Source: a virus
IMG/VR virus record: IMGVR_UViG_3300030102_006951
Span: 94,421-158,420 of that record
Length of the DNA stretch: 64,000 nucleotides
Reading direction: 5' to 3' (one strand)
Shown: piece after piece, positions 19,719 through 62,223 of the stretch
How the letters are laid out: each line of letters opens with the position of its first letter
How positions within the stretch are numbered: the stretch's first letter is position 1
The notes under the pieces: generated by a model
Told to the model about the DNA's origin: nothing
The model's input: the letters and a program-made list of their open reading frames with translations, nothing else
Databases searched by the model: none
Translations under genes and position numbers: made by a program

Positions 19719-21395
19719 ATGGGTTTTAAGACAAAATTAGATTATTCAGATAATAGACAAATAAGACAAACAGAGAAAACCTCTACCACTCTATCTGGTG
19801 CAACAGTGTTTGGTATACCATTTAGTGGGTTAACAACTGGACCCGATTTATCAGCTACTGGTGATACTAGTGAATTTAGTTTAGTTATCAGTACATTTAG
19901 TGGTAATAATACAACTACAAATTTTACTTGGTTTGACCCTAGTATGGATATTGTCAACCCAACCGTTTCGGCTATAACTCCAGTTACTAGTGGTGTTACG
20001 CAAGAAATTGTACCCGTTTTTGGCCCTTCTACCACTGCGACCACGGTTGATGGGTATGATGTGGTTTTATCTTACAGTGGAGTTGGTTTTGATTTAACAG
20101 TTACTAATATAATTAGCGGTGCTGGACCAACTTATATTGGTACTGTTGTTCATAACTTAGTAACATTTTATAGTGCTGCAACATTAGATTTCCTGGGTAG
20201 ACCTATTTGGGTTGACAATCCAGAAATAACAAGAACTAATAGGCTTATAGTCAAAAACAATCCGACCATTGGTTATGTTTTAACTTGTGATACGGCTGAA
20301 GGGGAGGCTGTGTGGGGTCCTGTATCTGGTACATCGTCTTCTGGTGTAACATTCTGGGAGGAAGGTGGTACTGGTAATACAGCAATTAAAGACAATAAAG
20401 GTACTCATACGATTAATGGTACTTCAAACAACTCCATGATAACTGGTGGGCTTAACAATATGGTTAAAACTTCATTAGGTACTGGAATTTTAAGTGGTAG
20501 GGGAAATTCAATAGAGGATTTGGCTAATTATTCTACCATTATTGGTGGTTTAGATAATAAAATTGAAAATTCTCAAAGGTCATCAATTATAGGTGGTAAT
20601 CAAAATATATTGATTGGAGCTTCTAACTCCACTATTTTAGGTGGTGAAGATATTACTGGAACATCTAATAATACCGTTTATGTGGATAATTTAGATATTA
20701 AAAATGATTTAGTAATTAATAATTTAGGTTCTGGCCCAGGTACTACAGATTTAGGTGTTGACGCAACTGGCGTTGTTGTGGACCAAGCATCAGATATAAA
20801 TTTAAAAGAAAATATTAATACAATAGAAAACGCATTAGACAAGGTTTTAAGCTTGAGAGGTGTGACATACAACTGGAAAGATAGACAAAGGGGTGGTAAC
20901 GACTTAAGAATGGGATTTATTGCTCAAGAAGTTGATGATGTCGAACCCAATTTATCTTATATGGGAACTTCTGGTTTTATGGGTGTACATTACAAAGATT
21001 TTCCAGCGCTTATTGTTGAAGCAATAAAAGAATTAGTTAATAATAAAAAAATAACTTTTAATAAAGAGGAGTTAATTTTTGAGACTCAAACAATAGCTTC
21101 GGAAGATAATAATATAGAGTTAAATTATAATGGTACTCATGAGTCATCTATTGATGGTGGTATTACTGTAGTTAAGGGAATTGATGAAGATAATGATTCC
21201 ACATTCGTAGTTGATTCTGTGGGTGATTGGATTACAAATACACACTTAAAACCAAGTGGTTTAGTTATTCCAGAATATACGCCAACATCGACTGAAGATT
21301 TAAACGGTAAGGTTGGTGAAATAAAGTGGGATGACAAATACTTATATGTAAAGACCAATAATGGTTGGAAAAGGTCTGGACTTGAAACATTTTAG
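19719..21395 (+). CDS. tail fibre-like protein with intramolecular chaperone (peptidase S74) domain
   Basis: S/T/G-rich N-half, GG-xx-N beta-helix repeats, SDINLKENINTIENALDKVLSLRGVTYNWKD..GFIAQEV. Confidence 0.8.
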   Translation: MGFKTKLDYSDNRQIRQTEKTSTTLSGATVFGIPFSGLTTGPDLSATGDTSEFSLVISTFSGNNTTTNFTWFDPSMDIVNPTVSAITPVTSGVTQEIVPVFGPSTTATTVDGYDVVLSYSGVGFDLTVTNIISGAGPTYIGTVVHNLVTFYSAATLDFLGRPIWVDNPEITRTNRLIVKNNPTIGYVLTCDTAEGEAVWGPVSGTSSSGVTFWEEGGTGNTAIKDNKGTHTINGTSNNSMITGGLNNMVKTSLGTGILSGRGNSIEDLANYSTIIGGLDNKIENSQRSSIIGGNQNILIGASNSTILGGEDITGTSNNTVYVDNLDIKNDLVINNLGSGPGTTDLGVDATGVVVDQASDINLKENINTIENALDKVLSLRGVTYNWKDRQRGGNDLRMGFIAQEVDDVEPNLSYMGTSGFMGVHYKDFPALIVEAIKELVNNKKITFNKEELIFETQTIASEDNNIELNYNGTHESSIDGGITVVKGIDEDNDSTFVVDSVGDWITNTHLKPSGLVIPEYTPTSTEDLNGKVGEIKWDDKYLYVKTNNGWKRSGLETF

Positions 21396-21397
21396 TA

Positions 21398-59333: not shown

Positions 59334-59376
59334 AATTAAATAACTGAAAATAATAAAAATTTAAAATAAGTAAAGA

Positions 59377-62223
59377 ATGGCTGATATGGTATTTGTAAGT
59401 CCTGGAGTTTATACTTCAGAAAGAGACTTAACTTTCGTAACACGACAAGTTGGTGTAACAACATTGGGTTTGGTTGGTGAAACAACTAAGGGTCCAGCTT
59501 TCCAACCGATATTCGTGTCAAACTATGATGAGTTCACATCGTTTTTCGGTGGTCTTAATGCAACAAAAATAAAAGATACGGGTGCACCTAAATATGAGTT
59601 ACCATATATTGCTAAATCGTATCTATCACAATCTAATCAATTATTCGTAACTAGAATACTTGGTTTCTCTGGATATGACGCTGGATTGGCATGGGGGATA
59701 ACCTTAGATGCAAATTGCGATTTATCAACTACTGGTGTAACTAGTGGTGGTGCTACATATTCTAGTAATTTAATTTCTTATACTGCTGATGGTCTTACAA
59801 TTGTTGATGTCACATCTTCAGACCCAGTGGTACAAGCTTTATGGGATAATGGGGCCCTAAATGATGAGTTAGCAATTTTAGCAACAGCATCAACTGGTCT
59901 TGTTGATACAATAGACCCAGTTTTTTATAAAAACGGATTATCTTTTGAAGGTGCTAGCATAAATTATGAAGTTGTTGATGCTGGTCCAGTTACTGGAACA
60001 ACATTGCAGACTGGTACAACTACTGGTGTTACGGTTCACTACTCTGGTTCTAGTTTTCAGAATGTTGAGAACAAGGTTGTTGCTTTGTTAAGAAGTAGAG
60101 CCACTGTTGACTCTGATGAAGTAGTTAGACCTCAAATTACTGGGTCTACAGATATAGGGTATAGTTCTTCTGTTACATCTGCTGAAACTGATGCGTTAGG
60201 TGATTTTGCAATTACTGGTAATTCAACAACTCAAGGAGACTTTTCATATTCATTGTCTTTTGACAAAACAAAAAATAATTACATAACTAAAGTTTTAGGT
60301 AGGTCTGCACAAGGTGGACAAACAGCATTATTTGTTGAAGAATTATTTGATAATATGTTACAGGATTATATTGATTCTGAAGAAATAAGAGGTATTAAAA
60401 TAGATTCTCTTGTTAATTACGATAATGATTTTGATAACTATTTAACAGAATACAAATCAGCAATTACCCCATGGGTAGTTTCTGAATTAAGAGGTAATAA
60501 ATTGTTAAGATTATTTAGATTGCATACAATTTCTGATGGAAATGCAGCTAATAGACAATTTAAAATTTCAATTAAAAATATTAGACTAAGCGATAAAGAA
60601 TTTGATGTTGAAATCAGGGCTTATGATGATACAGATGCTAAACCTGTAGTTTTTGAAAGATTTACAAGGTGTAGTATGCAACCAGCATCTAACAACTATA
60701 TAGCTAAAAGAATTGGTACTTTAGACGGTGAGTTTGCATCACGTTCTAATTTTGTATTAGTTGAGCTTGAAGAAGAGTCTGACACTTCTGAAGCTTTTCC
60801 AGCTGGTTTCTTAGGTTTCCCAATTAGAGATTACCAAACTAATGGTAATACTTCTGTTAAGTCACCTACAATAGAATATAAGCAATCTTATGGGCCTTTT
60901 GAAAATAAAAGAAAAGCTTATTTGGGTCTTTCTGAAACAAAAGGTATTGACCAAGATTTCTTTGATTATAAAGGTGTTCCTGAAGATAGTGATTTAATCG
61001 CTTGGACTGGATTAACGAAAGGTTTTCATATGGATATTGATGCTACTGGAGCAACAATTGATAACGTTGAAATCGTTATTAATAATACTGGTGGTACTTA
61101 TAGTCCAATATTTGAATTCGATACTGGTGTTGATGAGTTTAGAACTGAGTCTGGAGTTTCTGGTACTGATTATGAAAAAGTTTATGCTAGAAAATTCACA
61201 TTCGCACCTTATGGTGGTTTTGATGGATGGGATGTTCATAGAACTAGAAGAACTAATAGAGACAAATACATTATAAATGGTATTGCTGGTCAAAAGGGTT
61301 TAACTAGCGGTGTTTTTGAAAACAGAGCACTTAGTAATGGTGATACTGGACTTAATTCAGATTACTATGCTTATTTAGAAGCAATCAAGACTTTTGAAAA
61401 CCCAGAAGCTACAAATATTAATGTATTCAGTACACCTGGTGTTGACACATTTGATAATACTAATTTAGTAGAAGAAGCTATTGAAATGGTAGAACAAGAT
61501 AGAGCGGATTCACTTTACATTGTTACTACTCCAGATACAGACGCTGCTGGTGATGTTATGTTACCAGAAGATGTTGTTGATACTCTTGATAGTCAATTTG
61601 ACTCTAACTATACGGCTACTTACTGGCCTTGGATTCAAATTAATGATGCTGAAAATAACCAATATATTTATGTTCCACCTACAAGAGACGTGGTTAGAAA
61701 TATTGCACTTACAGATAATATTTCATTCCCATGGTTCGCAGTTGCTGGTGTAAATAGGGGTGATGTTCAGGCTATTAAGGCTAGAAAGAAACTAACACTT
61801 GCTGAAAGAGACACGCTTTATGATGGTAGAGTTAACCCGATTGCAACTTTCGCTTCTGAAGGTATTAAAATTTGGGGTAACAAAACATTACAAGTTAAAG
61901 ATACTGCTCTTAACAGAATTAATGTTAGAAGATTGTTATTACAAGCTAGAAAATTAATTTCTGCTGTATCTATCAGATTGTTATTTGAACAAAATGATGA
62001 TATCGTAAGAAATCAGTTCTTAGGTCTTGTTAATCCAATACTAGATAATATTAGAAGTGATAGGGGTCTTACAGACTTTAGAGTTGTTCTTGATGATTCG
62101 CCAGAATCTAGAGATAGAAATGAATTGTGTGGTAGAATATTTTTAAAACCTACTAGAGCTTTAGAGTTCATTTGTGTTGAATTCAACATAATGAACACTG
62201 GTGCTAGTTTTGATGATATTTAA
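59377..62223 (+). CDS. contractile tail sheath protein
   Basis: FVSPGVYTSERD, GETTKGPAF, YTATYWPW, PWFAVAG..RG, RDTLYDGRVNPI, IWGNKTLQ, RINVRRLL, LFEQND, KPTRALEFI. Confidence 0.95.
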   Translation: MADMVFVSPGVYTSERDLTFVTRQVGVTTLGLVGETTKGPAFQPIFVSNYDEFTSFFGGLNATKIKDTGAPKYELPYIAKSYLSQSNQLFVTRILGFSGYDAGLAWGITLDANCDLSTTGVTSGGATYSSNLISYTADGLTIVDVTSSDPVVQALWDNGALNDELAILATASTGLVDTIDPVFYKNGLSFEGASINYEVVDAGPVTGTTLQTGTTTGVTVHYSGSSFQNVENKVVALLRSRATVDSDEVVRPQITGSTDIGYSSSVTSAETDALGDFAITGNSTTQGDFSYSLSFDKTKNNYITKVLGRSAQGGQTALFVEELFDNMLQDYIDSEEIRGIKIDSLVNYDNDFDNYLTEYKSAITPWVVSELRGNKLLRLFRLHTISDGNAANRQFKISIKNIRLSDKEFDVEIRAYDDTDAKPVVFERFTRCSMQPASNNYIAKRIGTLDGEFASRSNFVLVELEEESDTSEAFPAGFLGFPIRDYQTNGNTSVKSPTIEYKQSYGPFENKRKAYLGLSETKGIDQDFFDYKGVPEDSDLIAWTGLTKGFHMDIDATGATIDNVEIVINNTGGTYSPIFEFDTGVDEFRTESGVSGTDYEKVYARKFTFAPYGGFDGWDVHRTRRTNRDKYIINGIAGQKGLTSGVFENRALSNGDTGLNSDYYAYLEAIKTFENPEATNINVFSTPGVDTFDNTNLVEEAIEMVEQDRADSLYIVTTPDTDAAGDVMLPEDVVDTLDSQFDSNYTATYWPWIQINDAENNQYIYVPPTRDVVRNIALTDNISFPWFAVAGVNRGDVQAIKARKKLTLAERDTLYDGRVNPIATFASEGIKIWGNKTLQVKDTALNRINVRRLLLQARKLISAVSIRLLFEQNDDIVRNQFLGLVNPILDNIRSDRGLTDFRVVLDDSPESRDRNELCGRIFLKPTRALEFICVEFNIMNTGASFDDI

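What the first reader, a model, noticed from the sequence alone, without database searches (positions are those of the whole stretch)
19719..62223. [S/T]-G-x-T motif saturates surface-exposed virion proteins: candidate sequon for a phage-encoded virion glycosylation system
Hand counts of [ST]GxT: 6 in the N-terminal ~220 aa of 19719 (none in its chaperone domain), 11 in 21398, 5 in 30205, 7 in 31708, about 35 in 43722, several in 49388 and 50819, and 8 in the tail sheath, clustered in its variable N-terminal/middle regions and absent from the conserved C-terminal core. I found none in the 1165-aa polymerase, the helicase, the neck adaptor or the sheath-covered tail tube. The motif recurs in unrelated folds with a free third position (SGAT, TGIT, SGYT, TGCT, SGFT), and [ST]AxT variants occur, so it is not one structural repeat. 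Inference: it is a recognition sequon for O-glycosylation by the cytoplasmic GT cluster at 0.1-17 kb, giving a glycan-coated virion. It differs from the host-type Bacteroidota D-[S/T]-[A/I/L/V/M/T] periplasmic sequon.
Basis: partly seen in the sequence, partly recalled or inferred. Interest (0 to 1): 0.9.

Follow-up and report, generated by a model that had tools for sequence, protein, structure and literature searches.

The report
Sugar-attachment tag on jumbo-phage tails
The outer tail and fibre proteins of this uncultured jumbo phage and its relatives carry the short tag Ser/Thr-Gly-any-Thr about five times more often than chance, and across genomes the tag is present or absent together with one particular phage sugar-transferase gene, so it is probably the address at which the phage attaches sugars to its own particle, although no sugar has been shown yet.

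Summary
Observation confirmed. All hand counts are exact: 80 [ST]GxT sites in 11 tail-region proteins against 16 expected from local shuffles, plus 35 [ST]AxT against 7. The signal is at protein level, directional and strictly spaced: S/T, then G>A, any residue, T only. Sites move between alignment columns in relatives.

'Saturates surface proteins' is too strong. The major capsid protein, portal, tube and the 2355-aa fibre are not enriched, and exposure was not shown.

Main result: the motif tracks one enzyme, the GT-B-like gene 15783-17063, not the whole cluster. A rumen clade that lost this gene but kept GTs 101 and 921 has no sites in the orthologue of 21398. The distant 735-kb phage LR756501 has this GT but neither 921 nor 11078, and [ST]GxT is its top motif (310 vs 104). 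In a blast screen only this GT and PhoH matched the pattern. One phage keeps a highly diverged copy without the motif.

Best reading (0.68): an undescribed sequon for phage-encoded O-glycosylation of tail proteins; no glycan is shown. The scan's first readers noted this motif in four other genomes; the look-ups showed no earlier link to an enzyme.

The parts
15783..17063 (-). 426-aa GT-B-like glycosyltransferase (phrog_7162, weak Glyco_transf_4); candidate sequon-reading, initiating enzyme
   Evidence: co-varies with the motif
19719..21395 (+). Tail fibre with Peptidase_S74 chaperone; 6 [ST]GxT and 3 [ST]AxT sites, the [ST]GxT sites all in residues 26-221
21398..23113 (+). Conserved 571-aa tail-region protein of unknown family; 11 sites; best marker of the motif across relatives
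23123..30190 (+). 2355-aa fibre-like protein; exception with only 1 site (1.1 expected)
30205..31704 (+). Tail-fibre-like protein; 5 sites
31708..33396 (+). Virion structural protein (phrog_10356, weak); 7 sites
43722..49358 (+). 1878-aa fibre with phage tail repeats (PF12789); 35 [ST]GxT and 20 [ST]AxT sites
49388..50119 (+). Probable virion accessory protein (inferred from position and composition); 3 sites
50819..51148 (+). Small probable virion protein (inferred); 2 sites
59377..62223 (+). T4 gp18-like tail sheath; 8 sites, all in the variable insertions (residues 119-255, 544-571)
11078..12163 (-). GT-A-like (Glyco_tranf_2_5) gene, present in most motif-positive relatives but absent from G018 and LR756501; candidate second-step enzyme
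921..2036 (-). GT-B enzyme, closest solved fold Actinobacillus AmGGT (Agt homologue); kept in motif-less genomes, so probably not the sequon reader
101..907 (-). GT2-like gene, kept with 921 in motif-less genomes
4899..12843 (-). Strain-variable island: nucleotide-sugar epimerase, two FkbM methyltransferases, GT2s, GT11, GT6, sulfotransferase; candidate outer-chain and capping enzymes (inferred)

Best explanation
[S/T]-[G>A]-x-T is a linear recognition sequon read in the host cytoplasm by the phage-encoded GT-B-like enzyme 15783-17063, which O-glycosylates tail sheath, baseplate-region and fibre proteins at many sites. SHOWN: the motif, its strict grammar, its turnover between positions, its restriction to peripheral tail proteins and its co-variation with this gene. 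INFERRED: the enzyme transfers the first sugar; the acceptor is probably the interchangeable first S/T, with the nearly invariant Thr as recognition hydroxyl (by analogy with N-X-S/T; the reverse is not excluded); 11078 and the variable GT2/GT11/GT6, methyl- and sulfotransferases extend and cap the glycan into a strain-specific coat.
For: Grammar in 193 pooled proteins of GT-positive phages: 844 vs 236; position 1 only S (3.8x) or T (3.3x), position 2 G 3.5x and A 2.1x, position 3 free, position 4 only T (3.5x; S 1.2x); reversed and re-spaced patterns 1.2-1.5x. Turnover: 69 sheaths use 31 columns; 71 orthologues of 21398 average 10.7 sites over 80 columns, 62 of them used by under 10%. Non-homologous fibres of relatives carry 15-27 sites. 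Whole-proteome ratios: GT-positive 1.7-3.2, GT-negative 1.0-1.4. Orthologue of 21398: 0 sites in 7 of 7 contigs without the GT (2 complete genomes, 5 fragments), 2-18 in those with a typical copy. Prediction made before looking: LR756501, whose sheath is not detectably related, has this GT but not 921 or 11078, and TGxT/SGxT are its two top motifs. Blast screen of 5 positive vs 4 negative genomes left only this GT and PhoH. Inteins sit inside the enzyme's conserved GGSSH motif in relatives.
Against: No glycan, activity or structure is shown for 15783 (no PDB sequence hit; not folded). The GT-negative rumen genomes form one clade, so they are one loss event. Phage contig ERZ27296262 k141_62159 keeps a syntenic but highly diverged copy (30% identity, branch length 2.9) and has no enrichment (6 vs 5.2). 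ESCO13 has 24%-identical homologues and no motif. GT-negative G005 has residual enrichment in S/T/G-rich proteins (31 vs 18, P=0.003), and the GT-less Flavobacterium phage immuto 2-6A reaches 1.6x. The 2355-aa fibre lacks the motif. No clear avoidance of the motif in non-virion proteins.
Confidence: 0.68

Rival explanations
1. The motif is a structural beta-turn or beta-bulge signature of beta-rich tail folds, and its link to the GT reflects shared ancestry or habitat.
For: Flanks are enriched in hydrophobic residues. Sheath sites lie in or between beta-strands. GT-negative phages show a 1.0-1.6x background. Only one clean loss event.
Against: GT-negative phages fill x-G-x-T with Asn/Asp (1.6x, 2.2x), GT-positive ones with Ser/Thr (N/D 1.0-1.2x). 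The orthologous protein folds without the motif in GT-negative phages. Sites move between columns. The loss separates sister rumen phages, and the distant LR756501 shares both GT and motif.
Confidence: 0.13
2. The motif is a real recognition tag, but the reader is another phage or host factor (kinase, other transferase, protease, chaperone or docking partner), and 15783 acts on something else or at a later step.
For: PhoH passed the same screen. A blast screen misses very divergent or short genes. The window holds an ATP-grasp and DOT1-like cassette at 56.4-59.0 kb. One phage has the GT without the motif.
Against: PhoH is also present in the motif-less phages ESCO13, immuto 2-6A, Mel-JY01 and the ERZ27296262 phage. 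No other gene was shared by all five positives. A cultured Flavobacterium myophage shows only background, which argues against a general Bacteroidota host enzyme. Hydroxyl residues at both constrained positions fit glycosylation.
Confidence: 0.14
3. The GT cluster modifies phage DNA or the host surface, as usually proposed for large-phage GT islands (PMC7824862, PMC12619734), and is unrelated to the motif.
For: This is the published reading for such islands. 101 and 921 persist without the motif and may well serve another target.
Against: It does not explain why 15783 and a virion-protein motif are gained and lost together. No flippase or membrane anchor was annotated among the GT genes scanned.
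Confidence: 0.05

Closest known systems
Virion glycosylation of mycobacteriophages by phage-encoded GTs (Freeman et al. 2023; read only through PMC12619734, PMC11256854 and PMC10877033, the paper itself was not held)
   Same: Phage-encoded soluble GTs proposed to put glycans on the phage's own particle proteins in the cytoplasm.
   Different: Those glycans are reported at the C-termini of capsid and tail-tube subunits. Here the tag is an internal four-residue motif, 5-35 copies per protein, on sheath, baseplate-region and fibre proteins, and absent from capsid protein and tube. No mycobacteriophage appears among the listed homologues of 15783.
Cytoplasmic sequon-directed protein glycosylation: Actinobacillus NGT with Agt (PMC12159676); GtfA/B and SdgB on serine-rich repeats (own knowledge)
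   Same: Cytoplasmic, nucleotide-sugar based, an initiating GT followed by extenders. The model of 921 matches AmGGT (TM 0.69), then GtfA and SdgB.
   Different: N-X-S/T is not enriched (1.01). The substrates are not serine-rich repeats. AmGGT does not accept glycopeptides, and 921 does not track the motif.
Bacteroidota general O-glycosylation, D-[S/T]-[A/I/L/V/M/T] (own knowledge)
   Same: O-linked to S/T in a short linear motif; the probable host phylum of this kind of phage (PMC12619734, not tested for this genome).
   Different: Periplasmic and host-encoded; the motif is not enriched here (0.98).
GT islands of large aquatic phages (moraphage core GTs, PMC12619734; cyanophage clusters, PMC7824862)
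   Same: Conserved core GTs plus a hypervariable island beside tail genes.
   Different: Targets there are unassigned or assumed to be DNA or host surface; no sequon and no enzyme-motif link were reported.

Membership tests
Mycobacteriophage-type virion glycosylation | Phage encodes its own soluble glycosyltransferases | tested here: met
Mycobacteriophage-type virion glycosylation | Targets are capsid and tail-tube subunits, at their C-termini | tested here: not met
   The motif is absent from capsid protein and tube here and rare in relatives; motif-independent glycosylation of these cannot be excluded
Mycobacteriophage-type virion glycosylation | GTs homologous to the mycobacteriophage enzymes | tested here: inconclusive
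   921 has no hit in 50,697 phage records; listed hits of 15783 are LR756501/3 and Stephanstirmvirinae, four organism names were not shown
Mycobacteriophage-type virion glycosylation | Covalent glycan on virion proteins | not testable with these tools
   needs glycoproteomics
Bacteroidota general O-glycosylation | D-[S/T]-[A/I/L/V/M/T] sequon enriched in substrates | tested here: not met
   465 vs 476
NGT/HMW1C cytoplasmic N-glycosylation | N-X-S/T enrichment and an NGT (GT41) gene | tested here: not met
   1775 vs 1758; no NGT family hit among the GTs scanned
GtfA/B or SdgA/B serine-rich-repeat O-GlcNAcylation | Serine-rich tandem repeats as acceptors | tested here: not met
   Sites are dispersed in globular and fibre domains
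GtfA/B or SdgA/B serine-rich-repeat O-GlcNAcylation | GT-B catalytic subunit with a GtfB-like partner | tested here: inconclusive
   921 has a GT-B fold; 15783 was not folded; no partner was sought
Moraphage lineage (PMC12619734) | Placement with the 25 described genomes | not tested
   their sequences were not fetched; only the general resemblance (large aquatic phage, core GTs) is noted

The most novel reading that the evidence does not exclude
A widespread, undescribed phage O-glycosylation system with a true four-residue sequon, [S/T]-[G/A]-x-T, read by a nearly phage-only GT-B family (15783). It is shared by freshwater, marine and rumen jumbo phages and by the 735-kb phage LR756501, primes a strain-variable glycan on tail proteins, and names the acceptor of the long-unexplained GT islands of large phages.
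Probability: 0.6. Interest if true: 0.9.

Novelty: new variant of a known kind. Interest (0 to 1): 0.8.

Why it matters
Large phages often carry big glycosyltransferase islands whose target is unknown. This result names a candidate acceptor motif and a single candidate enzyme, so the question can be tested without culturing the phage: one GT and one short peptide. If true, it is a sequon-directed virion glycosylation system in phages, which I found no paper describing, spread over a very large uncultured group (about 8,000 homologous proteins, a capped count that includes distant ones). A soluble cytoplasmic O-glycosyltransferase with a four-residue tag would also be a useful glyco-engineering tool.

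Tried and rejected
Composition artefact: rejected by global and local shuffles and low-complexity masking. DNA-level motif: rejected; the T-ending codon before Gly is genome-wide and the pattern is frame-specific. One structural repeat: rejected; 25 of 35 sites in 43722 are outside its two repeat types. 921 or 101 as reader: rejected, kept in motif-less genomes. 11078 as reader: weaker, absent from G018 and LR756501. Proline exclusion at x: seen in the sheath loci (0.03) but not in the pooled set (2.5x), so unresolved. Avoidance in non-virion proteins: 6 vs 13.6 in this genome but not reproduced. A new motif in the phage with the diverged GT: only a three-copy repeat in one protein; no relatives found. 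Late promoter for 15783: no exact ATATTTAT directly upstream. No cultured close relative. No PDB, NCBIfam or profile match for 15783. DGY is not enriched in this group. Freeman et al. was not held. Literature searches found no report of the motif. No complex prediction was run.
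Full report
CONTEXT. The window is positions 94421-158420 of a 158-kb virus contig and has 31% G+C. It encodes a T4-type sheath, tube, neck adaptor and polymerase. Complete relatives are 288-380 kb. No cultured phage is close. Habitat labels for relatives (rumen, freshwater) are my reading of IMG sample numbers and were not checked with a tool.

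OBSERVATION. In the 11 tail-region proteins there are 80 [ST]GxT sites against 16.1 expected from 30-residue local shuffles, and 35 [ST]AxT against 7.3. TGxT is the most enriched gapped triplet in these proteins. The pattern is in frame 83 times against 1-14 in other frames, and the codon bias before Gly is genome-wide. Limits: the 2355-aa fibre has 1 site, and capsid protein, portal, tube, adaptor and polymerase have none here and almost none in relatives.

GRAMMAR. In 193 S/T/G-rich proteins from nine GT-positive genomes the motif occurs 844 times against 236. Position 1 admits only S or T, position 2 G or, less often, A, position 3 is free (K and R least), position 4 admits only T. Reversed and re-spaced versions give 1.2-1.5x. 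N-X-S/T, D-[ST]-[AILVMT] and DGY give 1.0x. In GT-negative phages the same x-G-x-T slot is enriched for Asn and Asp instead.

TURNOVER. Sixty-nine sheaths (64-89% identical) hold about 7 sites each over 31 columns, all in the variable insertions. Seventy-one orthologues of 21398 hold 10.7 sites on average over 80 columns; the best column reads T47/S24, G71, x, T70/S1. Fibres with no homologue in this genome carry 15-27 sites in relatives. The AlphaFold sheath model is poor overall (pLDDT 56) but mostly confident in residues 101-300, where sites lie in strands, at a hairpin tip and in a loop. Exposure was not computed.

WHICH ENZYME. Among 150 distant sheaths the motif is patchy, which allowed a natural test. 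GTs 101 and 921 are present in complete genomes G005 and G006, which lack the motif in the orthologue of 21398 and are at or near background overall. GT 15783 is absent from both by profile and six-frame search and present in the other 14 near-complete virus records searched. The orthologue of 21398 has 0 sites in seven contigs without the GT (two complete, five fragments) and 2-6 sites (at most 0.6 expected) in their GT-positive rumen-type neighbours. The five of these placed on a tree form one clade nested among GT-positive genomes, so this is a single loss.

INDEPENDENT TEST. LR756501 (735 kb) has a 36%-identical 15783 homologue but no 921 or 11078, and its sheath is not detectably related. 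I predicted the motif before fetching the genome. TGxT and SGxT are its two top motifs, 310 vs 104 over the proteome. LR756508, with no homologue, gives 68 vs 49; ESCO13 22 vs 21; Mel-JY01 7 vs 9; Flavobacterium phage immuto 2-6A 37 vs 23. A blast screen for genes in all five positive and none of the three negative jumbo genomes returned only 15783 and PhoH; PhoH also occurs in motif-less phages.

COUNTER-EVIDENCE. One phage contig keeps a syntenic 15783 homologue at 30% identity, on a very long branch outside the clade of motif-linked enzymes and with an altered N-terminal loop, and has no motif. This is either a change of specificity or a true exception. ESCO13 has 24% homologues and no motif. 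G005 keeps a weak excess. The number of independent contrasts is small: one loss, one distant shared presence, four distant negatives (ESCO13 among them), one exception.

THE ENZYMES. 15783 matches phrog_7162 and virus-only Atlas clusters, with no PDB or NCBIfam match. In bacterial and archaeal genomes it was found only on nine MAG contigs; those with enough flanking genes have phage-like neighbourhoods. Three relatives carry insertions in it; two were read as inteins in the conserved GGSSH motif and the third has a LAGLIDADG domain. The model of 921 (pLDDT 84) is closest to Actinobacillus AmGGT, a chain-extending glucosyltransferase that does not take glycopeptides (PMC12159676). GT6, GT11, the epimerase, methyltransferases and sulfotransferase vary between strains.

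MECHANISM. Inferred: 15783 adds the first sugar to S/T in [S/T]-[G/A]-x-T on newly made tail proteins in the cytoplasm, and 11078 with the variable island extends and caps it. A shield against proteases or grazers, or a role in adhesion, is speculation.

KNOWN SYSTEMS. It works like mycobacteriophage virion glycosylation (cited through PMC12619734 and PMC11256854) but fails that system's target pattern, so I do not file it as a member. It is not the Bacteroidota or NGT sequon. Published work treats such islands as DNA or host-surface modifiers (PMC7824862, PMC12619734). No paper in the library reports the motif. Earlier scan notes saw it in four other genomes and a parallel DGY tag in other huge phages; these are unchecked leads, not support.

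VERDICT. Real, lineage-wide and tied to one enzyme; glycosylation is inferred, not shown. Confidence 0.68, interest 0.8, new variant of a known kind.

Noticed in passing
L360:6927-9077, L362:6023-7720, L361:10319-12811: Homologues of GT 15783 in three relatives are interrupted; two show intein ends inside the conserved GGS/SH motif and the third carries a LAGLIDADG domain.
   Followed up: partly
L434:10001-12462: Tandem duplicate of the 15783-type GT on a phage-like contig binned in a Bacilli MAG.
   Followed up: no
window 8071-9574: Adjacent GT11 and GT6 genes, a blood-group-like pair; GT6 was found only in this genome among those compared.
   Followed up: partly
window 23123-30190: The largest fibre-like protein lacks the motif although it sits among motif-rich genes; it has Cys/Trp-containing repeats.
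   Followed up: no
window 19678 (-), 19693, 23079, 43652, 50127, 50798, 59326, 62348 (+): ATATTTAT precedes the structural genes and the leftward operon that runs towards 15783; a short hairpin lies between 17182 and 17063.
   Followed up: partly
window 56454-59032: Cassette with a sugar-transfer-associated ATP-grasp gene and a DOT1-like methyltransferase.
   Followed up: no
L087 (LR756501 515-565 kb): A D-P-Y-G-E-E-x-W-like motif recurs in about 17-20 different proteins.
   Followed up: no
G012 and LR756501 (e.g. L236, L368): Very long low-complexity Ser/Gly/Thr-rich proteins (up to 88% S+T+G) with hundreds of SGxS units.
   Followed up: no
G000:C1:88764-90173 (outside the window): 469-aa protein with 2 sites here and 3-7 in three GT-positive relatives; probably another virion protein.
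   Followed up: partly
whole genome: Codons before Gly almost always end in T (GCT 106, GCG 4, GCA and GCC 0), a strong codon-pair bias.
   Followed up: no
L086 (LR756508 202.9-208.4 kb): Two adjacent sheath-like genes.
   Followed up: no
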